Positions 6,701 to 22,329 are shown, counted from the stretch's first letter. The stretch is DNA of 32,000 bases from Snuella sedimenti (GCF_016428595.1 NZ_JAELVQ010000006.1:149876-181875); one strand, 5' to 3'. Numbers and translations: made by a program. The notes: generated by a model not told the origin, from the letters alone.

Positions 6701-7054
6701 AATTACAATTGTATTGTTTTGCGTTAACTCAAAGTTAAGAGCATTCTCATTCAAACAAAGGTTTAATAGTTTACTTAACTCTATAACGCCTTTCTTTAAT
6801 TGTACTTTTGGACTGTCCTTAAATAAACTCTTGGGGTAAATAAAACGATAATCTGTTTGTTTTTTAATGATTTTAAATACTTGATCAACCATAATGAGCT
6901 GATCTTTTTCTATTATTACCTTTTCCTGAGCAAAAGAACTTTTGGTTGTAAAGCTAAAAACTGTAGCACACAATAAAAAGATAAACGTTTTCATAATCAT
7001 GAGTAACAACCGTTTTCGGATTTGAAAACGGACATTAATTAATTTAATTTCCAT
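3722..7054 (-). CDS. SusC/RagA-type TonB-dependent transporter with N-terminal STN signalling domain (transducer type, module 1)
   Basis: 1110 aa with a long N-terminal signal region. An STN-like segment (about aa 50-120) is followed by a carboxypeptidase-regulatory-like domain (VTDQDGQPLPGATVTVKGD). Plug motifs are present (VVVVGYATQKK, SISVLKDAASSSIYGSRAANGVVLITTKRG). The barrel ends ...IGVQLAF. It is paired with FecR upstream and SusD downstream. Confidence 0.95.
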   Translation of the reverse strand: MEIKLINVRFQIRKRLLLMIMKTFIFLLCATVFSFTTKSSFAQEKVIIEKDQLIMVDQVFKIIKKQTDYRFIYPKSLFKDSPKVQLKKGVIELSKLLNLCLNENALNFELTQNNTIVIKEKEKEEVSSENQQQIEVKGTVTDQDGQPLPGATVTVKGDETKGVQVDFDGHYSIAVSSSQSVLVYRFLGFVTKEIEVGNQTEINAILQEEAQGLNEVVVVGYATQKKANLTGAVSSIKGDELTTKPLTDARQALQGVATGLTIIDRGGSPGGETLSFKIRGNGSVSAGTDPLVLIDGIESPISEINMQDIESISVLKDAASSSIYGSRAANGVVLITTKRGKEGKLRINLDSYTGWQTTATLPELVGPEDYLNLVNEALVNAGLPEKYSDEYIQNTISGADPIAYPYTDMFEELFKSAPVQNHSLSVRGGSELARIALSVNYLDQDGMLYNTGSERIGTRLNTDLKLSDAFRLRGNIYFNSREARKPNRFDEAIGAIVGSSPVNVLQYPNGAYGLNKDNTNALAALKESGTNLRVSEALSLNLGLDWDLLKGLKLSTDYTYLRTHIRNKNFKASFDFKDPNDLTNVVHRWTPNELSESRWEETRHKLKSILNYEVTIGDEHAFNVLGGIERIENAGNYLWASRQNIYNEDSPELNTGDIVSKDNAGYSEDWALLSYLGRINYSFKDKYLFEANIRHDGSSRFAEGHKWGTFPSFSGGWVISNEDFMSNISAIQHLKFRGSWGQLGNQNIGLYRFASNINTNYSYSFNDVQVNGYSQSTYANEDITWETSEQTDIGIDLLLFRGKLGITADWFHKKTKDMLLNLPISPLVGLGSSEINIGSVSNKGWELSLNYKNRDHEFKYAMGFNITDIKNELTNFGGLPPSISAWSVLKEGEPMWSFYGYKSDGLFQTQEEIDNHAPQPNQSELKPGDIKLVDLNGDGEINDDDRTIIGNPNPRYEYSFNFSADYKGFDINFFLQGVAKAENYFYGATNEGPAFEIFTTTRVLDRWTPDNPNASFPRLEAASNKNNFLYNDFWIRDASYLRLKNIQVGYSFNKNILDKLKLSKARIYTGATNLFTITDVESGLDPETYSGRVNYYPPTSTYTIGVQLAF

Positions 7055-7061
7055 AAATTTG
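7054..7061 (+). promoter_or_regulatory. Exact Bacteroidota -7 promoter consensus (TAnnTTTG) on the plus strand, overlapping the susC-1 start codon
   Basis: TAAATTTG at 7054-7061. Its first T is the complement of the A of the susC-1 ATG. An identical 8-mer occupies the identical position at susC-2 (20414-20421). I found no convincing -33 TTTG/TTG at the expected spacing. Confidence 0.3.
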
Positions 7062-7100
7062 TTGGGTGTTAGTTAAACATTTAATTAATACGACATAAAG

Positions 7101-7151
7101 GGAGAGAAAGTTAGATACCGCCAAATGTCTGTGCTTCTCTCCTCTTTTTTT
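7101..7151 (+). terminator. Intrinsic-terminator-like hairpin plus T7 run, canonical only for a plus-strand (antisense) transcript, in the fecR-1/susC-1 spacer
   Basis: GGAGAGAA (7101-7108) pairs with TTCTCTCC (7135-7142). An inner helix AGATA (7113-7117)/TGTCT (7126-7130) contains a T-G pair that is allowed only in plus-strand RNA. The hairpin is followed by TCTTTTTTT (7143-7151). On the minus strand the homopolymer precedes the hairpin as an A-tract. Confidence 0.45.
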
Positions 7152-8316
7152 ATTCTAATATTAGTTTTTTATCTTGAATCTCATAGGCTGTAATTTTTCC
7201 GAAATTTTTAATACTTGCTAATATCTCTTCTATTTTTTGGTCTTTTCCTAGCATTCCGTTAAACTCTTCTTTTTCCAATTCAGGGTTCTTAAATACCACC
7301 TCCATATCATACCATCGCGCCAAAACGCGCATTATATCCTTAAGCGACTTTTCATCAAAACTAAATACGCCTTCTTTCCACGAAATCTCATTGTACACAT
7401 CAACAGTTGCTACCGAAATATTTTTTGTTTCAAGGTCGAGATTTGATTGCTGATTAGGTATTAAGTTTTGTTTGTTTCCTTCAAAACTTACAGCTACCTT
7501 GCCTTCTACCAAGGTTGTATAAACATGGGACTCATCTTTATATGCCTTTACATTAAATTGAGTCCCAAGCACCTGAATTTCTTGTTTATTATTAAGCACC
7601 TTAAACCCTGCTCCTTTATGAGCTGAGCTTGGGGATACTTCAAAGTAAGCCTCTCCATAAACCAACTCTACTTCACGTAGCTTACCTTCTGTAAAACTTA
7701 CAGGGTATTTTAATTGGGATTCTGAATTTAACCATACTTTAGTTCCGTCGGATAGTGTCATGAAGAATTGACCGCCTCTGGGAATTGTTAAGTAATTGTA
7801 TTCAACAGCTTTATTTGCTTTCTTTTTTGACACATAAACAAGTGCCTCTCCATTACTGCTTACATTATCATCTTGGTAACTTGTTCCTTTTTCTAAGGCT
7901 ACATTGGCACCATTAGCCAGCGTAAGCGTCGCTTTATCGGTACCTATTTCAATATTATTAATATTAACAATGATTGGTTCAATACGCTCTGTCTCACTTT
8001 CTTTATTTAAGAATATGGTTAATGTTACCATAAGAGCAACGGAAGCTGCCGCTGCATACTTAAACCAAGGCTTCTTGAAGATTACAACACCGGTTTTTGT
8101 TTGCTTCTTTTGTGCCTTTAATAAAACCTCATCCCAAGCATTGTCTTTATCGATGGTATTGTATTCTGATATTTTATCTGCAAAACTTTCAAAATCAACA
8201 TCCTTTACAAAGGGATATGTTTTTCTAAATTGTTTTAATTGCTCTTTACCTGTTGCGCTTAAAACTTTTAGTTTTTTCTTAATTATTAGTCTTGATATCT
8301 GAAATATATCATTCAT
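7150..8316 (-). CDS. FecR-family anti-sigma factor / transmembrane sensor (module 1)
   Basis: 388 aa with a single TM helix (WFKYAAAASVALMVTLTIFL). FecR domain (TIPRGGQFFMTLSDGTKVWLNSESQLKYP...VELVYGEAYFEV). C-terminal DUF4974-like segment (SLKDIMRVLARWYDMEVVF). It sits between the ECF sigma and the STN-SusC genes. Confidence 0.93.
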   Translation of the reverse strand: MNDIFQISRLIIKKKLKVLSATGKEQLKQFRKTYPFVKDVDFESFADKISEYNTIDKDNAWDEVLLKAQKKQTKTGVVIFKKPWFKYAAAASVALMVTLTIFLNKESETERIEPIIVNINNIEIGTDKATLTLANGANVALEKGTSYQDDNVSSNGEALVYVSKKKANKAVEYNYLTIPRGGQFFMTLSDGTKVWLNSESQLKYPVSFTEGKLREVELVYGEAYFEVSPSSAHKGAGFKVLNNKQEIQVLGTQFNVKAYKDESHVYTTLVEGKVAVSFEGNKQNLIPNQQSNLDLETKNISVATVDVYNEISWKEGVFSFDEKSLKDIMRVLARWYDMEVVFKNPELEKEEFNGMLGKDQKIEEILASIKNFGKITAYEIQDKKLILE

Positions 8317-15503: not shown

Positions 15504-17024
15504 TTACCAACCTGTATTTTGCTGCAGGTTAGCATTTATGTTTATTTCCTGTAATGGAATAGGGTACACAATATGTTTCTCCTGAAAGTTCTCTGCAAAG
15601 GGTTTATTGTGACTTTCTAAAGTTGTTTTTATAGATTCTGTTGCAGTGCTACCGCGTTGCCATCTATACAAATCAAACCAGCGTATACCAAACTCCATAG
15701 CCAATTCTACTGGTCGTTCATGATGCCTAATTTGAGCTCTTAAGGCCTCTTTTGTCATACTTCCTAAAGGAACCGCTCCGCCTCTTTCCCTAACGAGATT
15801 AACCTGATCGATAGCCAACGTCGTTTTATCATTCTCATTCAATGCTTCTGCATACATCAATAATACATCGGCATAACGAATCACAGAAATATTAGTCCCG
15901 TTATAAAAATTCTCATCGGCATTCCAAGAATATTTCTTGAAATATTTTGGATGGTTTAATGCGTCTGACACATCGCTATACAACTGATTTTCACCCGCAT
16001 CCATATTATACATTTCAGAATTGGGATCGTCGAAGAAAATGCTTTCATAAACACGCTCACTAGGATCTCCTGAAGCATCTAGATCTGTTTTCATTTCGTC
16101 TACCAACCATTGTGAGGGGTAAAATAGCTCCCAACCACCAAAGGCATATGGCGACACTTGAAAATTAAACACTTGTCGTTCGTCATTTCCATTAGATCGG
16201 TCTCCTGAAAATTGAATCTCAAAAATACTTTCTACGCCATTTTCTGCATTACCGTTAAAATTATCGCCATAGTTTGGCAGCAATGCATAGCCCATACCTG
16301 TCACTTCTTCCAGTTTAGATTCTGCTTGCCCCCATTTTTCTTGAAATAAATACACTTTACCCAATAGGGCTTTAGCAGCACCCTTAGTTGCTCTCCCCTT
16401 CCATTCTGAAGGATAATCTGTTGGCAAATCTGATTCTGACTCAGATAAGTCTGTTTCTATTTGTGCCCATACAGCTGATGGTTCTGCCTGATTTGGAAAC
16501 AAATTATCCAATTCTCCACTAAAAGTTGTAATTAAAGGAACATTTTCAAATCCGGTTACCAACCAAAAATAGTAGTAAGCCCTCAAGAATTTCGCTTCTG
16601 CAATTAAGCCTTTTTTAGTAGCATCTGAAAGCGCTTCCATATCTGGCACTTTCTGTAATATTTGATTGGCTCTACCAATACCTGCATAACTAGCCTTCCA
16701 GATATTAAAAGGGCCACTTTCTTCGGTTGTATTAGAGAAACTTGCTAAAGAACGTCCGTAAGTTTCTGCTGTATTATTGGCCACATCATCTGCTCGGTAC
16801 GCCATAGATGTATACATTTCCTCAAAAAAAGTCCATTTACTTCCATCAGCACCTTGTATAGCTGCATAGGCAGAGGTTAAGGCCTGCATTGCATGATCTT
16901 CGGTTTGCCAAAAGCTTTCTTCTGTTAGCACCTCTTTATTTTCAACTTCAATAAAATTGTCACTACATGAATTTGCAAACCCAAAAAATAGAATTGCAAT
17001 TATTATATAATTAATATTTTTCAT
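15504..17024 (-). CDS. SusD/RagB-family nutrient-binding outer-membrane lipoprotein (module 2)
   Basis: 506 aa. Lipobox FGFANSC followed by acidic SDNFIEVE. SusD-like blocks LRAYYYFWL, RYADVLLMYAEALNE and RHHERPVELAMEFGIRWFDLYRW. It lies 27 nt downstream of susC-2. Confidence 0.93.
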   Translation of the reverse strand: MKNINYIIIAILFFGFANSCSDNFIEVENKEVLTEESFWQTEDHAMQALTSAYAAIQGADGSKWTFFEEMYTSMAYRADDVANNTAETYGRSLASFSNTTEESGPFNIWKASYAGIGRANQILQKVPDMEALSDATKKGLIAEAKFLRAYYYFWLVTGFENVPLITTFSGELDNLFPNQAEPSAVWAQIETDLSESESDLPTDYPSEWKGRATKGAAKALLGKVYLFQEKWGQAESKLEEVTGMGYALLPNYGDNFNGNAENGVESIFEIQFSGDRSNGNDERQVFNFQVSPYAFGGWELFYPSQWLVDEMKTDLDASGDPSERVYESIFFDDPNSEMYNMDAGENQLYSDVSDALNHPKYFKKYSWNADENFYNGTNISVIRYADVLLMYAEALNENDKTTLAIDQVNLVRERGGAVPLGSMTKEALRAQIRHHERPVELAMEFGIRWFDLYRWQRGSTATESIKTTLESHNKPFAENFQEKHIVYPIPLQEININANLQQNTGW

Positions 17025-17051: not shown

Positions 17052-20000
17052 TTACATGGATAGATTAACACCAAAAATGAAAGATTTTGTCAATGGGTAA
17101 AACCCTCTATCTACCCCTCTTGTAAACGTACCTCCATTACCAAGTCCTGGATCGAATCCTGAGTAATTCGTTATTGTAAACAAGTTATTGGCTGTAATGT
17201 AAACTCTGGCTCTTGAAAGTTTTACTTTAGATGTTACATCTTCTGGTAGTGTATACCCTATTTGGATGTTTTTTAACCTTAAATAAGAACCATCTTCTAA
17301 AAAGTAGCTTGATGGGCGAATATTGTTATTAGGATCTCCAAAAGCATTTCTAGGTATATTACTTCCTGAATTTTCAGGTGTCCAAGCATTTAATAAATCG
17401 GAAGACATGTTGTTTCTATCGGTTCTATATAACCACATCTTCACACCATTATAAATTTTATTCCCTTGAGTGCCTTGAAAAAACAAACTGGCATCAAAGT
17501 TTTTATACTTAGCATTAAATGTTATTCCGTATTCAAAATCTGGCAATCCACTACCCATATATTTTTTATCGTCATCTCCCAAAACACTATCACCGTTCAC
17601 ATCTGCAAATCTTAAATCACCAGGAGCAGCATCGGGTTGGATGCCATGTGCATCGACTTCTGCTTGACTTTGAAAAATACCATCGGCTTGAAATAAATAA
17701 AAACGACCTATTTCGCCTCCAACCTCTGTACGTGTTGTTGGAAAGTTATTAAATTCTATAAAACCATCAGTAAACGACTCGTTAGCCACTCCTAATTTTG
17801 TTACTTTGTTTTTTGAGGTACTTATGTTTGCGGAAACATCAAAAGTAAAATCTTTAGCTGAGTCACTACTATAATTAAGCGACAATCCCCATCCTTTATT
17901 TTCAAGATTACCGCCATTGGTTAACGGGAACGATGTTATTCCAGAACTCGCAGGTATTGGAACAGACACCAACATATCGGTTGTCTTGGACATAAAATAA
18001 TCGAAGGTTGCTTTAATGCGATTATTAAGCAGGGCTAAATCGACTCCTATATTGGTTGTCGCCGTTTCTTCCCATTGTATATCTGGTGTTGGCAATGAAT
18101 TGGCTATGGCTCCAACTAATACGTTTTGACTCACACCTTCTCCAAAGGGATAATTTAACTGTTGTCCCCCAGAACCAATTCGAGCTAAAAACAAATGCTC
18201 CCCTATAAGCTGATTACCTAAAGTACCATAACTAAATCTAGGTTTTAACTGACTTACTAATCCCGAATCAAAAAACGCTTCGTTATGCAAAGCCCAGCCC
18301 AATGATACAGAATAGAACGTTCCATACTTATTATCGGCTCCAAATCGCGAGGAACCATCTCTTCTTACACTTGTTTGAACGTAATACCTATTGTTATAAT
18401 CATAATTTAAACGTCCAAAATAAGACTGTAATGTGTTAGTTGAATTAAACCCAAAAGCAGATTCATCACCTATACCTGCACTTAACGCCAATAACTGATC
18501 TGATGCCAAAGTATTATTCGAACCTCCAACTGATCTAAATTCACTTTTTTCACGAGAAACTCCTAATAAAACATCCAAATCATGACTTCCAAATGCTTTA
18601 CGAAAATTTACGGTATTGTTTAGCGTCCAGTCATTTGTTCGTGTTCTTGTCTCACTTAAAAATGGATCTTCATTTGTTGATTGGGGTCCAAAATTATAAG
18701 TTGGTAAAAAGAATGAAAAATGTGTATTTTCTACATTGGCTCCATATTGAAACTGATAGGTTAACCCATCAACAATCTCTAAGGTAGCCGATAAATTAAA
18801 CTGTAAGTAATCATTTTGATTGGTACGATCGGTTAATTCGCCCACGCCAATTGGATTTTCAGATCCCAGTCCGTCTGCAGGCGTTGCAAACCCGTTAACC
18901 GAATTCGGATCATAAATGGCTTTATGCGGTAATTGTGAATAGATACTTAAAAATGGAGAGAAGCTGGCATTACCTCCTCCTATCGGCTCAAAAATATCAC
19001 GGGTATTTTCTCTAGTATAACCAATACCAGGGGATACTTTTAACTTATCTCCCAACAGTTTGAAATCCATGTTCAAACGCGTGTTAAGCCTATTAAAATC
19101 CGTATTGATTACGGTTCCTGTATTCTCAAAATAACCACTGGAGAAGTTATAAGCCATCTTTTCAGAGCCTCCAGATATACCAATATCATGTTTTTGCTCG
19201 AAAGCATTGTTTAAATAAGCTCCAACCCAATCAGAATCTGCATAATCCATCCCATTCGTTAAATAGGGAGCAGGTGTAACACCAGCATTATTATAGGCTT
19301 CTAATTTTATCTGATCATGCTGGTTCCTATTGGCTACAGAAATATTATTTGTAATCGCATGTGTACTTAAATAAGAGTTTACAGTTACTTTAGGCTCACC
19401 CTTTTTCCCCCGCTTTGTGGTTACAATAACAACACCATTTGAGGCCCTTGACCCATATATTGTTGCTGCCGAGGCATCTTTTAAAATACTGATGTTGGCA
19501 ATATCTGCCGGGTTTACATAAGATAAATCTCCCGGGATACCATCGATTACAAATAATGGATTGTTGTTCCCAATCGTCCCAAGACCTCTAACACGAATTA
19601 CAGGATCACTTCCCGGAGCTCCAGAAGCCACAGATACATTAACTCCAGCAACTTGACCTTGCAAGGATGTAGCAATATCTGCTGTTGGTATTTTTTGAAG
19701 CTCTGATACATCTACCGACGTAATGGCCGCTGTTACTTCTTCTCTTTTTTGAGTACCGTACCCTACTAATACAACTTCGGCTAAACTTTGTGCATCTTCC
19801 TCTAAAACAACATCTATTTTAGTTTGATTACCAACGCGTATTTCTTTAGTTACAAATCCTAAATACCTAAAGACCAAAACAACTTGAGCGTTAGAAACCT
19901 CAATAGAGTAGTTGCCGTCAAAATCTGTTTGAGCACCTTTTGTTTCGTCTCCCTTAATAGTTACTGTCGCCCCTGGTAATGGGTTTCCAAACGTATCGGA

Positions 20001-20414
20001 AACCAAACCGGTAATTACTTGTTGCGTTTGTTCGATAAGCTTAACTGCTTTTTTATTCAAAAGAATAGAACCGTCTTCAGAGAATTTGTATTCAAAATCA
20101 CCAAAAGACAAGCTTTTCCTCAATAAATCGCCTGCATTAATCTTACCTTTTTTTACACGGACTTTGGGCGCATTAATAAATAAATCTGATCTGTAGATAA
20201 AAGGATGGTCTGTTTGCTCCTTTATAAGATCAAAGACTTCTTCTACAGACAGCTCTGCATCGGCTTTAATAACAATTTTTGTGTTTTGGGAAAACCCATT
20301 GTTACCCCCCAGTCCAAAGGTCGCCATACAGCATAAAAAAATAAAAGCTCTCATAACCGTAATTAAAAGTTTTTTTCTATACCCTATAGGTACCTTAATA
20401 AATTTAGTTTTCAT
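17052..20414 (-). CDS. SusC/RagA-type TonB-dependent transporter with N-terminal STN signalling domain (module 2)
   Basis: 1120 aa with the same architecture as 3722-7054. The N-terminal third is very similar to SusC-1. For example, LPGATVTIKGDETKGAQTDFDGNYSIEVS...FRYLGFVTKEIRVGNQT corresponds to LPGATVTVKGDETKGVQVDFDGHYSIAVS...YRFLGFVTKEIEVGNQT. Confidence 0.95.
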   Translation of the reverse strand: MKTKFIKVPIGYRKKLLITVMRAFIFLCCMATFGLGGNNGFSQNTKIVIKADAELSVEEVFDLIKEQTDHPFIYRSDLFINAPKVRVKKGKINAGDLLRKSLSFGDFEYKFSEDGSILLNKKAVKLIEQTQQVITGLVSDTFGNPLPGATVTIKGDETKGAQTDFDGNYSIEVSNAQVVLVFRYLGFVTKEIRVGNQTKIDVVLEEDAQSLAEVVLVGYGTQKREEVTAAITSVDVSELQKIPTADIATSLQGQVAGVNVSVASGAPGSDPVIRVRGLGTIGNNNPLFVIDGIPGDLSYVNPADIANISILKDASAATIYGSRASNGVVIVTTKRGKKGEPKVTVNSYLSTHAITNNISVANRNQHDQIKLEAYNNAGVTPAPYLTNGMDYADSDWVGAYLNNAFEQKHDIGISGGSEKMAYNFSSGYFENTGTVINTDFNRLNTRLNMDFKLLGDKLKVSPGIGYTRENTRDIFEPIGGGNASFSPFLSIYSQLPHKAIYDPNSVNGFATPADGLGSENPIGVGELTDRTNQNDYLQFNLSATLEIVDGLTYQFQYGANVENTHFSFFLPTYNFGPQSTNEDPFLSETRTRTNDWTLNNTVNFRKAFGSHDLDVLLGVSREKSEFRSVGGSNNTLASDQLLALSAGIGDESAFGFNSTNTLQSYFGRLNYDYNNRYYVQTSVRRDGSSRFGADNKYGTFYSVSLGWALHNEAFFDSGLVSQLKPRFSYGTLGNQLIGEHLFLARIGSGGQQLNYPFGEGVSQNVLVGAIANSLPTPDIQWEETATTNIGVDLALLNNRIKATFDYFMSKTTDMLVSVPIPASSGITSFPLTNGGNLENKGWGLSLNYSSDSAKDFTFDVSANISTSKNKVTKLGVANESFTDGFIEFNNFPTTRTEVGGEIGRFYLFQADGIFQSQAEVDAHGIQPDAAPGDLRFADVNGDSVLGDDDKKYMGSGLPDFEYGITFNAKYKNFDASLFFQGTQGNKIYNGVKMWLYRTDRNNMSSDLLNAWTPENSGSNIPRNAFGDPNNNIRPSSYFLEDGSYLRLKNIQIGYTLPEDVTSKVKLSRARVYITANNLFTITNYSGFDPGLGNGGTFTRGVDRGFYPLTKSFIFGVNLSM

Positions 20415-20421
20415 AAATTTG
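20414..20421 (+). promoter_or_regulatory. Exact Bacteroidota -7 promoter consensus (TAnnTTTG) on the plus strand, overlapping the susC-2 start codon
   Basis: TAAATTTG at 20414-20421, with the same sequence and the same position relative to the susC ATG as in module 1. Confidence 0.3.
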
Positions 20422-20453
20422 TTTGTATTAGTTAGAAATAATTAATAATCCTT

Positions 20454-20501
20454 GGGGATGAAGTTCTAAATTGTCCAGATCTAAACTTCATTCCCTTTTT
20501 T
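20454..20501 (+). terminator. Intrinsic-terminator-like hairpin plus T6 run, canonical only for a plus-strand (antisense) transcript, in the fecR-2/susC-2 spacer
   Basis: GGGGATGAAGTT (20454-20465) pairs with AACTTCATTCCC (20484-20495) over 12 bp. Pair 4 is G-U in plus-strand RNA but would be an A-C mismatch in minus-strand RNA. The hairpin is followed by TTTTTT (20496-20501), which overlaps the fecR-2 stop. Confidence 0.5.
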
Positions 20502-21645
20502 ACTTGACTCTGACCGTTTTTCCTTTAGTTTCAAATTTTACTTCATTCGTATTTTCTATAATTTTTAAAATGTTCTCAATATGTTGTTTTTTATTAAATA
20601 CACCATTGAACTTAACCTCTCCAATAGTTTCATTTTCTATCTCAAATTCAATATCATACCAACGAGAAAGCACTAACATAATCTCTTTAAGTGGTTTATC
20701 CTTAAAGCTAAAAAAGCCATCTTTCCAAGAAATTATATCTGACACATTAACTTCTGAAATACTAACTTGATTTGACCCTATACTTAATTTTGCTTGTTGC
20801 CCTGGAGCCAAGTACTTTGAAACCTCATTCGCTTTCAACAGTATTTTCCCCTCAACCAAAGTGGTTGCTATGGCTGTATCTTCTTTATATGCCTTAACAT
20901 TAAACTCCGTTCCCAAAACATCAATGTTTTGTTCGCGTGTGTTAACCATAAAATGGGCATTATTATGTTCAGAACTTGGGGACACATCAAAATAAGCTTC
21001 TCCGTAAACAAGTTCAACTTGCCTTGGTTTGTTTTTTGCAAACACTACTGGGTATCTTAATTGTGAATCTGAATTTAGCCAAACCTTTGTACCATCAGAC
21101 AAGGTTATAAAAAACTGTCCGCCTCTGGGTATTGTCAGCACATTATAGGCAATGGGTTTGTTTTCCTTAGCTCTTTTAGGCGCTGCAGTATAAACTATAC
21201 GCTCACCATTACTGGTTAGGTTTTCACCTTCAAAAGATGCTCCTTTTTCCAACACTATATTAGAACCATCTTCTAAAGTTAGAGTAGCTTTATCGGTACC
21301 TATCTCTATAGAATTTGTTTCAACAACTTTAGGTATAACTACAGTAGGTTCCTCCTTTTTCTCTACAAAAACAAAAATTCCTAGTAACAAAACTGCCGCA
21401 ACTGCCACTGCATATTTCCAATCTCCTTTTGCTTTAGCCTTCGGATTGATTTTAGTGGAAACTTCACTCCAACCCTTTTGAACATCAACCTCATCAGGAG
21501 ACTTTAAATAGTACTCTTGCACCTTATAGAAATACGCTCTATGGGTTTCGTCCTCCGAAAACCAAGCGTTAAAAACCGTTTCCTCCTCTTTAGTAAGAGT
21601 GTTATTTATTTTCTTTAAAATGAGTTTAAACTCCATAGCATCCAT
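20500..21645 (-). CDS. FecR-family anti-sigma factor / transmembrane sensor (module 2)
   Basis: 381 aa with a TM helix (WKYAVAVAAVLLLGIFVFV). FecR domain TIPRGGQFFITLSDGTKVWLNSDSQLRYP...VELVYGEAYFDV. C-terminal PLKEIMLVLSRWYDIEFEI. Confidence 0.93.
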   Translation of the reverse strand: MDAMEFKLILKKINNTLTKEEETVFNAWFSEDETHRAYFYKVQEYYLKSPDEVDVQKGWSEVSTKINPKAKAKGDWKYAVAVAAVLLLGIFVFVEKKEEPTVVIPKVVETNSIEIGTDKATLTLEDGSNIVLEKGASFEGENLTSNGERIVYTAAPKRAKENKPIAYNVLTIPRGGQFFITLSDGTKVWLNSDSQLRYPVVFAKNKPRQVELVYGEAYFDVSPSSEHNNAHFMVNTREQNIDVLGTEFNVKAYKEDTAIATTLVEGKILLKANEVSKYLAPGQQAKLSIGSNQVSISEVNVSDIISWKDGFFSFKDKPLKEIMLVLSRWYDIEFEIENETIGEVKFNGVFNKKQHIENILKIIENTNEVKFETKGKTVRVK

Positions 21646-21765: not shown

Positions 21766-22329
21766 TTATTGATTAGTTAACAACAAAACGATAACAGCTC
21801 CCAAAGAATGTGTAATTTTTACCTTTGCCCTTTTAAGTTGTGTTTTCACTGTATTTACAGAAACGCCTATTTCATCTGCTATTTCAGCATACTTATAGTT
21901 ATCTATAAATCGCAACTTTACAATCTGCTTCATTTTACCAGGCAAGGTTTCTATTATTTTAAGAACCTGATTGTAGATTATCGATTTGTCTTCCGCAGAA
22001 AACACCTCCAGATCGTAGGCTTCATCCAGTATAGTATGCAAAGCCAGCACATTTGTATTATCGGTTATCTTAATCGATTTCAAATGGTTTAAACATCTAT
22101 TCCTAACCATTATAAAAAGATACCCCTTTAAAGAGGATTCTATATTAATAGTCTCTGATTTTTCCCATAGGTAAACAAAAATATCTTGTACAATGTCTTC
22201 GCTACTACCTTTATCAAACAAATACCCCATGGCATAACTTACCATATCTTGGTAGAGCTCATTAAAAAGTTTTTTAAAGACAAAACGATTTTTCTTTTGT
22301 ATTTCCTGTAAAACAGAATTAGAATCCAA
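21766..22329 (-). CDS. ECF (sigma-70 family) RNA polymerase sigma factor (module 2)
   Basis: 187 aa with a TTG start as given by the track; the exact start is uncertain. Region 2 (EDIVQDIFVYLWEK) and a region 4 HTH (YKYAEIADEIGVSVNTVKTQLKRAKVKI) are present. Confidence 0.88.
   Translation of the reverse strand: MDSNSVLQEIQKKNRFVFKKLFNELYQDMVSYAMGYLFDKGSSEDIVQDIFVYLWEKSETINIESSLKGYLFIMVRNRCLNHLKSIKITDNTNVLALHTILDEAYDLEVFSAEDKSIIYNQVLKIIETLPGKMKQIVKLRFIDNYKYAEIADEIGVSVNTVKTQLKRAKVKITHSLGAVIVLLLTNQ

What the first reader, a model, noticed from the sequence alone, without database searches (positions are those of the whole stretch)
20414..20501. Candidate cis-antisense sRNA in the fecR-2/susC-2 spacer (plus strand)
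Seen in sequence: an exact TAnnTTTG (TAAATTTG, 20414-20421) lies on the plus strand and overlaps the susC-2 start codon. It is followed 32 nt later by a 12-bp hairpin (20454-20465 / 20484-20495) and T6. The hairpin is strand-specific. Its fourth pair is G-U in the plus-strand RNA but A-C in the minus-strand RNA, and the U-run follows the stem only on the plus strand. This predicts a roughly 70-90 nt transcript fully complementary to the susC-2 5' leader.

Established knowledge: cis-encoded antisense sRNAs at the anti-sigma/susC junction of ECF-type PULs repress PUL expression in Bacteroides fragilis (DonS family; Cao, Forstner, Vogel and Smith 2016). I am not aware of this class being described in Flavobacteriia.

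Caveats: the -7 motif is short and AT-rich, so chance matches are expected elsewhere in the window. I found no -33 element.
Basis: partly seen in the sequence, partly recalled or inferred. Interest (0 to 1): 0.68.

Follow-up and report, generated by a model that had tools for sequence, protein, structure and literature searches.

The report
Antisense small RNA gene facing susC
The 85-base gap between an anti-sigma gene and a sugar-transporter gene (susC) in this marine flavobacterium almost certainly holds a gene for a ~76-base RNA read from the opposite strand. It belongs to a conserved, multi-copy family of the same kind as the DonS antisense RNAs that restrain glycan-utilisation loci in gut Bacteroides.

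Summary
The short promoter box alone is no more frequent than chance (48 matches in the window, 46.6 expected). The composite is far from chance.

- **Own genome.** 23 of 27 fecR-linked SusC-like genes (28 fecR-susC junctions in all) carry the box on the antisense strand, in one fixed register with the ATG. None of 18 unlinked susC/TonB genes does.
- **Terminator.** 24 of 27 spacers have a hairpin plus T-run that works only on the antisense strand.
- **Strand test.** Stem mismatches are G-U on the antisense strand 32 times and on the sense strand 2 times.
- **Other genera.** In 69 junctions from about 60 other Flavobacteriaceae species: 48 exact boxes, 56 antisense against 6 sense terminators.
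- **Covariation.** On a sequence-only alignment of 49 copies, three helices covary: 88.6% of cells pair on the antisense strand and 70.4% on the sense strand.
- **Model search.** A covariance model hits 19 of 101 genera of the family. It hits none of the 117 genomes outside the family in a class-level sample. All 20 hits I fetched lie between fecR and susC.

No Rfam family matches, and I found no paper describing this class in flavobacteria. Earlier notes of this scan report the same design on other genomes. Verdict: real, and a new member of a known kind.

The parts
20414..20421 (+). Sigma-A type -7 promoter box TAAATTTG. Its first T pairs with the A of the susC-2 start codon.
   Evidence: The same register is found in 23 of 28 own-genome junctions. 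Across 96 junctions, 71 boxes are exact and 92 have at most one mismatch. None of 18 unlinked SusC-like genes has it.
20426..20501 (+). Predicted antisense small RNA of about 76 nt. The start is inferred from the box lying at -12 to -5; the end is in the T-run.
   Evidence: The box position relative to transcription start sites in Flavobacterium is taken from PMC9723704. Covariance model R1 matches window 20414-20502 at 75.5 bits. No expression data could be obtained.
20426..20447 (+). 5' A/U-rich hairpin: 9 pairs with a GAAA loop, including one G-U pair. It begins at the predicted start site.
   Evidence: Fold. This is helix 1 of alignment A2: 88.9% paired on the antisense strand against 69.3% on the sense strand.
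20454..20495 (+). Terminator hairpin: a 12-pair outer stem (20454-20465 with 20484-20495) and a small inner helix in the 18-nt loop.
   Evidence: These are helices 2 and 3 of A2. 10 of 11 predicted pairs show compensatory changes. Antisense pairing is 90.5% and 83.0%; sense pairing is 78.9% and 51.0%.
20496..20501 (+). T6 tract ending the RNA. It overlaps the fecR-2 stop codon (TAA on the minus strand, 20500-20502).
   Evidence: An A-run precedes the stem on the sense strand in nearly all paralogues. In other genera there are 56 antisense and 6 sense terminators among 69 junctions.
17052..20414 (-). susC-2, a TonB-dependent SusC-type transporter and the presumed target. Its leader is complementary to the RNA.
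   Evidence: Pfam Plug, CarboxypepD_reg and TonB_dep_Rec_b-barrel.
20500..21645 (-). fecR-2, the anti-sigma factor gene upstream of the spacer.
   Evidence: Pfam FecR and FecR_C.
21766..22329 (-). ECF sigma factor gene of module 2.
   Evidence: Pfam Sigma70_r2, Sigma70_r4_2 and Sigma70_ECF.
7054..7151 (+). Second copy of the same element in the fecR-1/susC-1 spacer: box 7054-7061, predicted start about 7066, 5' hairpin 7066-7091, terminator 7097-7147, T7 at 7145-7151.
   Evidence: + strand z = -4.2, minus strand z = -1.4. R1 scores it at 70.6 bits.

Best explanation
The fecR-2/susC-2 spacer encodes a cis-antisense small RNA of about 76 nt.

**How it is probably made (inferred).** The housekeeping sigma-A polymerase binds the -7 box that overlaps the susC ATG. 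It starts at about 20426, transcribes toward fecR, and stops at the intrinsic terminator (20454-20501). The RNA has a 5' A/U-rich hairpin and a terminator hairpin. It is perfectly complementary to positions -12 to about -87 of the susC leader.

**What it probably does (inferred by analogy with DonS).** It keeps the susCD operon off or damped while the ECF sigma is inactive. It could do this in two ways:
- by pairing with leader-containing transcripts, giving translation block or duplex cleavage;
- by head-on transcriptional interference, because the antisense promoter sits on the susC translation start and antisense transcription runs across the whole spacer.

Strong ECF-driven sense transcription would in turn run over and occlude the antisense promoter, which would give a sharp on/off response.

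**Shown here.** The sequence anatomy. Its strict association with fecR-linked susC genes. Its strand-specific structure, covariation and conservation in at least 19 genera.

**Inferred only.** That the RNA is transcribed, where its ends lie, and that it represses.
For: **Anatomy and folding.**

**A second copy in the window** has the same layout.

**Own genome.**
- 23 of 28 fecR-linked susC starts carry CAAANNTATG, against 27 of 2,328 ATG ORF starts overall.
- 23 of 27 linked and 0 of 18 unlinked SusC-like ORFs carry it.
- A strand-neutral stem search gives 32 A.C against 2 G.T on the sense strand, which is G-U on the antisense strand.
- 24 of 27 spacers have an antisense terminator. Predicted RNA lengths are 65-104 nt.
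- Box-plus-terminator composites: 19 of 62 genome-wide lie at junctions.

**Same-genus orthologue.** Spacer 84/86 identical; fecR 78% and susC 82% identical.

**Other Flavobacteriaceae, 69 junctions.** 48 exact boxes, 56 antisense against 6 sense terminators, A.C 61 against G.T 13.

**Covariation.**
- RNAalifold on a MAFFT alignment: 10 of 11 pairs have compensatory changes.
- Pair counts: 88.6% paired against 81.8 +/- 0.6 in shuffles (0 of 500 reach the observed value). 73 double-change cells against 25.7 expected. Slid controls 41-62%.
- G-U 180 against A-C 22.

**Covariance model R1.** Hits in 19 of 101 genera. 20 of 20 fetched hits are antisense between fecR and susC, with the first base on the ATG. 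In the own genome every hit is at a junction.

**Literature.** DonS-type antisense RNAs of 78-128 nt at this position have been detected in Bacteroides. DonS represses its locus in B. fragilis, and some B. thetaiotaomicron antisense RNAs anticorrelate with their susC (PMC7366714; PMC11697453).
Against: - There is no direct evidence of transcription.
- No -33 element lies upstream of the box.
- The box alone is at chance frequency in the window.
- The between-species conservation island is wider than the RNA, running from about -100 in fecR to about +190 in susC. Other overlapping elements, such as the undetermined ECF promoter or signals in the early coding region, therefore also contribute to the conservation.
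- The sense-strand transcription start is unknown, so the extent of sense/antisense overlap is uncertain.
- The paralogues and related genera used in the counts are not phylogenetically independent, so the p-values overstate the support.
Confidence: 0.78

Rival explanations
1. The conserved features serve the sense strand only. They would be the ECF-sigma promoter, the susC 5' leader, or a target site near the start codon for a trans-acting RNA or protein. On this view the match to the -7 box and the hairpin are by-products, and no antisense RNA is made.
For: - The sense ECF promoter must lie somewhere in or just upstream of the spacer, and I did not locate it.
- Leader sequences such as ATTAATTAA and TTTAACTAA are conserved as sequence, not only as structure.
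- The conservation island extends beyond the RNA.
- In B. thetaiotaomicron the region around susC start codons is a target of trans-acting FopS RNAs (PMC11697453).
Against: - A sense-strand role does not explain a hairpin whose wobble pairs are G-U on the antisense strand 180 times against 22.
- It does not explain the T-run that follows the stem on the antisense strand only (56 against 6).
- It does not explain why the start-codon motif equals the exact sigma-A -7 consensus in 71 of 96 junctions.
- Only 6 of 69 junctions have any sense-strand terminator.
Confidence: 0.1
2. The antisense-oriented terminator is an insulator. It would stop pervasive antisense transcription arising anywhere inside the A/T-rich susC gene from running into the sigma and anti-sigma genes. 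The box would not be a dedicated promoter.
For: - A/T-rich genomes generate spurious antisense promoters, a point noted in PMC7366714. Boxes occur about every 700 nt per strand.
- No -33 element is present.
Against: - The box is fixed in register at the ATG in 92 of 96 junctions, allowing at most one mismatch.
- The box-to-terminator distance is constrained: predicted RNAs of 65-104 nt in the own genome and 73-125 nt, median 83.5, in other genera.
- A conserved 5' hairpin begins exactly at the predicted start site in both window copies and covaries.
Confidence: 0.07
3. The inverted repeats act as DNA, as palindromic binding sites for a regulatory protein and not as RNA.
For: - The elements are inverted repeats near a regulated promoter.
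- A further palindrome lies in the early susC coding region.
Against: - The stem sequences differ widely between copies while pairing is kept: 73 double-change cells. This is not expected of a protein-binding site.
- A DNA palindrome would show no preference for G.T over A.C between strands.
- The stem is followed by a T-run.
Confidence: 0.03

Closest known systems
DonS and the DonS-like PUL-associated cis-antisense RNAs of Bacteroides (B. fragilis, Cao et al. 2016, J Bacteriol 198:2410; ten further examples mapped in B. thetaiotaomicron, Ryan et al. 2020, PMC7366714)
   Same: - They lie at the same position, in the spacer between the anti-sigma gene and susC of ECF-sigma-type glycan-utilisation loci.
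- They face susC in the same divergent, antisense orientation.
- They are multi-copy within one genome (reported for 15 loci in B. fragilis; 23-27 predicted here).
- The size range is similar: 78-128 nt reported, about 76 nt predicted here and 65-104 nt among the own-genome paralogues.
- Sigma-A type promoters are reported for about half of the Bacteroides cis-antisense RNAs.
   Different: - Expression and repression are shown for DonS; nothing is shown here.
- The host is a marine member of the Flavobacteriaceae, not gut Bacteroidales.
- I could not test sequence homology. The Cao paper is not held and no DonS sequence was available.
- Model R1 finds nothing outside the family among 117 genomes of the class, so this is a separate sequence family.
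- I do not know whether two features described here apply to DonS: the -7 box fixed on the ATG, and the 5' hairpin at the start site.
FopS, the family of 14 paralogous small RNAs of B. thetaiotaomicron (PMC11697453)
   Same: - It is a multi-copy small-RNA family of about 65-70 nt, with sigma-A promoters and intrinsic terminators.
- It acts on the 5' region of susC mRNAs and represses glycan-utilisation loci.
- The predicted RNAs here have some complementarity in trans to leaders of other paralogous susC genes (mean duplex energy -12.8 against -10.1 kcal/mol for control leaders).
   Different: - FopS RNAs are mostly encoded elsewhere and act in trans through a single-stranded 5' seed. The elements here lie only at their own junction, and their 5' end is predicted to be a hairpin.
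- FopS is said to be in Rfam, but no Rfam family matches here.
- FopS works with the RRM protein RbpB. No RRM_1 protein was found in this 99.7%-complete genome, while the B. thetaiotaomicron control was positive.

Membership tests
DonS-like PUL-associated cis-antisense RNAs | Encoded in the spacer between the anti-sigma (FecR-type) gene and the susC homologue of an ECF-sigma-regulated glycan-utilisation locus | tested here: met
   Pfam confirms sigma, FecR, SusC and SusD in this order on the minus strand. The element lies at 20414-20501, between fecR-2 and susC-2.
DonS-like PUL-associated cis-antisense RNAs | Transcribed divergently (antisense) to susC | tested here: inconclusive
   Promoter box, terminator, G-U pairs and covariation all point to the antisense strand.
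DonS-like PUL-associated cis-antisense RNAs | Length about 78-128 nt (PMC7366714) | tested here: inconclusive
   The predicted length is about 76 nt here, 65-104 nt in own-genome paralogues, and a median of 83.5 nt in other genera. The ends are inferred, not mapped.
DonS-like PUL-associated cis-antisense RNAs | Negatively affects expression of the cognate susC or locus | not testable with these tools
   This needs genetics and expression measurements.
DonS-like PUL-associated cis-antisense RNAs | Sequence or structure homology to the Bacteroides RNAs | not tested
   No DonS sequence was at hand, since Cao et al. 2016 is not held. No Rfam hit. R1 has no hit outside the family in the class sample.
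FopS (Rfam-deposited family of B. thetaiotaomicron) | Match to the deposited covariance model, with a single-stranded 5' seed followed by a terminator | tested here: not met
   No Rfam family reaches its gathering score in the window, and none is close at E <= 10 on the spacer. The 5' end is predicted to be a hairpin.
FopS (Rfam-deposited family of B. thetaiotaomicron) | Partner RRM-1 protein RbpB present | tested here: not met
   PF00076 has no match in G000 (99.7% complete). The B. thetaiotaomicron control is positive.
Intrinsic (Rho-independent) terminator | Stable stem-loop directly followed by a U-run on the transcribed strand | tested here: met
   A 12-pair stem plus T6 on the + strand. 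The built-in scan missed it because it only allows loops of 3-8 nt.

The most novel reading that the evidence does not exclude
The 23-27 junction RNAs of this genome do more than act as private cis-repressors. Through their conserved 5' hairpin sequence they would also pair in trans with the leaders of other ECF-type susC genes. Through head-on promoter occlusion each would form a toggle with its own ECF promoter. Together this would set a hierarchy among glycan-utilisation loci in marine Flavobacteriaceae, without the RRM protein that Bacteroides uses.
Probability: 0.2. Interest if true: 0.7.

Novelty: new member of a known kind. Interest (0 to 1): 0.5.

Why it matters
Marine Flavobacteriaceae are major degraders of algal and animal polysaccharides, and their utilisation loci are mostly studied at the protein level.

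This work points to a conserved, multi-copy antisense RNA at every ECF-type locus: 23-27 copies in this genome, and at least 19 of 101 genera sampled. If real, RNA-level control of these loci, known so far from gut Bacteroides, would also be a built-in part of the sigma/anti-sigma/SusC module in a second order of the phylum.

The work also yields a concrete, searchable RNA family that is not in Rfam: a defined promoter register, two covarying hairpins and a working covariance model. The family can be tested directly by Northern blot or differential RNA-seq in any cultured carrier. The kind of element is already known, so the gain is in breadth and definition and not in a new principle.

Tried and rejected
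- **Rfam.** No hit at gathering thresholds over the whole window. A permissive scan of the spacer gave only chance-level matches, such as SNORD63 and P31.
- **Built-in terminator scan.** It did not list the hairpin, because its loop limit is 8 nt.
- **Cao et al. 2016.** The paper (PMC4999932) is not held, so I made no direct comparison with the DonS sequence.
- **Sense-strand ECF promoter.** A search for AAC-N15-18-CGT, and for positional k-mers, found no consistent site. I dropped earlier ideas that GGAAC in the 5' arm, or AAC at the loop boundary, form a -35 element, because they are unsupported.
- **Plus-strand 99-aa ORF (20471-20770).** I rejected it as a gene. It contains several stop codons in the same-genus orthologue.
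- **Loop inversion.** My scoring of the inverted loop motif was too noisy to count reliably.
- **Distribution outside the family.** With anonymous genomes this stayed qualitative. Antisense terminators were seen in 6 of 12 loci from other families of the class and in 1 of 13 loci of family f39.
- **dCas12f-sigmaE RNA-guided transcription (PMC13472631).** I considered it and set it aside, because those systems lack FecR.

Full report
**Observation**

The window carries two tandem modules on the minus strand, each with an ECF sigma, FecR, SusC and SusD gene (Pfam). Module 2 consists of sigma 21766..22329, fecR-2 20500..21645, susC-2 17052..20414 and susD 15504..17024.

- TAAATTTG at 20414-20421, whose first T pairs with the A of the susC ATG;
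- 32 nt later, a 12-pair stem (20454-20465 with 20484-20495) whose fourth pair is G-U on the plus strand only;
- T6 at 20496-20501, overlapping the fecR stop codon.

The box by itself means nothing: 48 matches in the window against 46.6 expected. The plus-strand RNA folds much better than shuffles (z = -3.5). The minus-strand RNA does not (z = -1.7).

**A second copy**

The fecR-1/susC-1 spacer (7054-7151) has the same layout: the same box on the ATG, a 5' A/U-rich hairpin, a long terminator hairpin and T7 on the fecR stop codon (z = -4.2 against -1.4). In both copies the 5' hairpin begins exactly 12 nt after the first base of the box. That is where transcription should start if the box lies at -12 to -5, as mapped in Flavobacterium psychrophilum (PMC9723704).

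**The whole genome**

The assembly is 4.37 Mb with 35.7% G+C. Its closest named relatives are marine Flavobacteriaceae such as Arenibacter and Flagellimonas. It has 31 FecR genes, 28 of them followed by a SusC-size gene.

- 23 of the 28 susC starts read CAAANNTATG. This is the -7 consensus on the antisense strand, in one fixed register. Among all 2,328 ATG ORF starts, 27 read so.
- Of 45 SusC-like ORFs, 23 of 27 fecR-linked ones have the box, and none of the 18 unlinked ones does.
- A stem search that treats G.T and A.C alike found 32 A.C and 2 G.T mismatches on the sense strand. These are G-U pairs on the antisense strand.
- An A-run precedes the stem on the sense strand in almost every copy. 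24 of 27 spacers score as antisense terminators, predicting RNAs of 65-104 nt.
- Only 62 of 6,255 boxes in the genome are followed by a strict terminator. 19 of these 62 are at the junctions.
- Sequence profiles built from the elements hit nothing outside the junctions.

There are two sequence classes: A, with a short-loop terminator, and B, which includes both window copies.

**Other genomes**

The same-genus orthologue has a FecR 79% identical in protein, yet a spacer identical at 84 of 86 aligned positions. Three further orthologous pairs show 91-98% identity in the spacer, against 78-90% in fecR and 82-85% in susC.

The conserved island is wider than the RNA. It runs from about -100 in fecR to about +190 in susC, so other signals overlap it.

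80 loci from about 60 Flavobacteriaceae species gave 69 usable junctions:
- 48 exact boxes;
- 56 antisense and 6 sense terminators;
- 61 A.C and 13 G.T on the sense strand.

Over all 96 junctions, 71 boxes are exact and 92 have at most one mismatch.

**Covariation**

I aligned 49 class-B copies with MAFFT, which ignores structure.
- RNAalifold recovered the terminator stem and an inner helix. 10 of 11 pairs show compensatory changes.
- With the 5' hairpin added, 88.6% of cells pair, against 81.8 +/- 0.6 in shuffles (0 of 500 reach it). There are 73 double-change cells against 25.7 expected. Slid controls give 41-62%.
- Read on the sense strand, the same pairs are 70.4% standard. G-U outnumbers A-C by 180 to 22, in the same direction in all three helices.

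These sequences are related to one another, so the exact p-values overstate the case. The direction is nevertheless uniform.

**Distribution**

Covariance model R1 finds full-length matches in 19 of 101 genomes of the family, one genome per genus, with 1-10 copies each. It finds none in the 117 genomes outside the family in a class-level sample.

I fetched 20 hits from 13 other genera. All 20 lie between a fecR and a susC homologue, on the opposite strand. In 16 of the 20 the protein alignment to SusC-2 begins at residue 1, at the first base of the hit.

Outside the family, antisense terminators with other sequences occur at about half of the junctions sampled in other families of the class. 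They are rare in one family of the wider phylum sample. Those genomes are anonymous, so I draw no taxonomic conclusion from this.

**What it is and how it probably works**

The best reading is a gene for a cis-antisense RNA of about 76 nt (20426-20501). It would be transcribed by the sigma-A polymerase from a promoter that sits on the susC start codon, and it would end at an intrinsic terminator on the fecR stop codon.

It is complementary to the susC leader from -12 to about -87. By analogy with DonS it would hold the susCD operon down when the ECF sigma is inactive, either by pairing with the leader or by head-on transcriptional interference. Induced sense transcription would in turn occlude the antisense promoter.

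Transcription, the RNA ends and repression are all inferred. I could not locate the sense ECF promoter, so the extent of RNA-RNA overlap is unknown. Some trans complementarity to other susC leaders exists but is modest.

**Comparison with what is known**

DonS is the representative of a family of 78-128 nt cis-antisense RNAs divergent to susC in Bacteroides. The family is reported for 15 loci in B. fragilis, with ten more mapped in B. thetaiotaomicron (PMC7366714; PMC9723704). Its mechanism is still unknown (PMC11697453).

The element here shares position, orientation, size range and multiplicity with that family. Expression, function and homology could not be tested.

It is not FopS. No Rfam family matches, it is encoded only in cis, its 5' end is predicted to be paired, and no RRM_1 protein was found in the genome.

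My searches found no paper describing this class in flavobacteria. The F. psychrophilum transcriptome paper mentions DonS only as a lead for future work.

Earlier notes of this scan report the same design on other genomes, including two follow-ups that reached the same verdict.

**Verdict**

The element is a real, strongly conserved, multi-copy RNA family that is not in Rfam. It is a new member of a known kind, pending proof of transcription.

Noticed in passing
window 7010-7031 (susC-1 codons 8-15); similar in many paralogues: A palindrome lies inside the first 45 nt of fecR-linked susC genes (CCGTTTTCAAATCCGAAAACGG in susC-1). It sits 22-45 nt upstream of the antisense -7 box. The first 60 nt of susC are 93-100% identical between the two species of the genus. 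It could be a regulator site for the antisense promoter, or a structure in the sense RNA.
   Followed up: partly
G000 junctions with long spacers (e.g. C18, C9, C34, C54:70220); also fecR-1 3' end, window about 7165-7175: The motif GCCTATG, followed within 0-3 codons by a stop codon, occurs 20-60 nt upstream (sense) of the terminator hairpin in 11 long spacers. In short-spacer loci it falls within the fecR 3' coding end (codons A-Y-E). Its function is unknown.
   Followed up: partly
window 7113-7130 compared with L094:3481-3579 and others: The apical part of the class-B terminator loop carries a motif that seems to occur in either orientation: ACCGCCAAATGT in window copy 1, and ACTTTGGACGGT in other copies. 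It looks as if the loop had been inverted between the stem arms. My scoring was too noisy to count this reliably.
   Followed up: partly
G000, whole genome: There are two sequence classes of junction element. Class A has a short-loop terminator (CGGGAAATG...CATTTTCCG) and the 5' hairpin TGGTTAATTAATTTTAATCA. Class B includes both window copies. Together they occupy 23-27 of the 28 fecR-susC junctions.
   Followed up: yes
G000, whole genome: No RRM_1 (RbpB-type) RNA-binding protein was found in this 99.7%-complete genome, although the B. thetaiotaomicron control was positive.
   Followed up: yes
window 20471-20770 (+): A 99-aa ORF with a TTG start lies antisense to fecR-2. It is interrupted by several stop codons in the same-genus orthologue and is not a gene.
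   Followed up: yes
L131, L133, L134, L136, L138 (anonymous family f39): FecR-susC spacers of another family in the phylum sample share a different conserved motif, TGGAAGCGCTTTT, which contains the palindrome AAGCGCTT. Most of them lack an antisense terminator.
   Followed up: no
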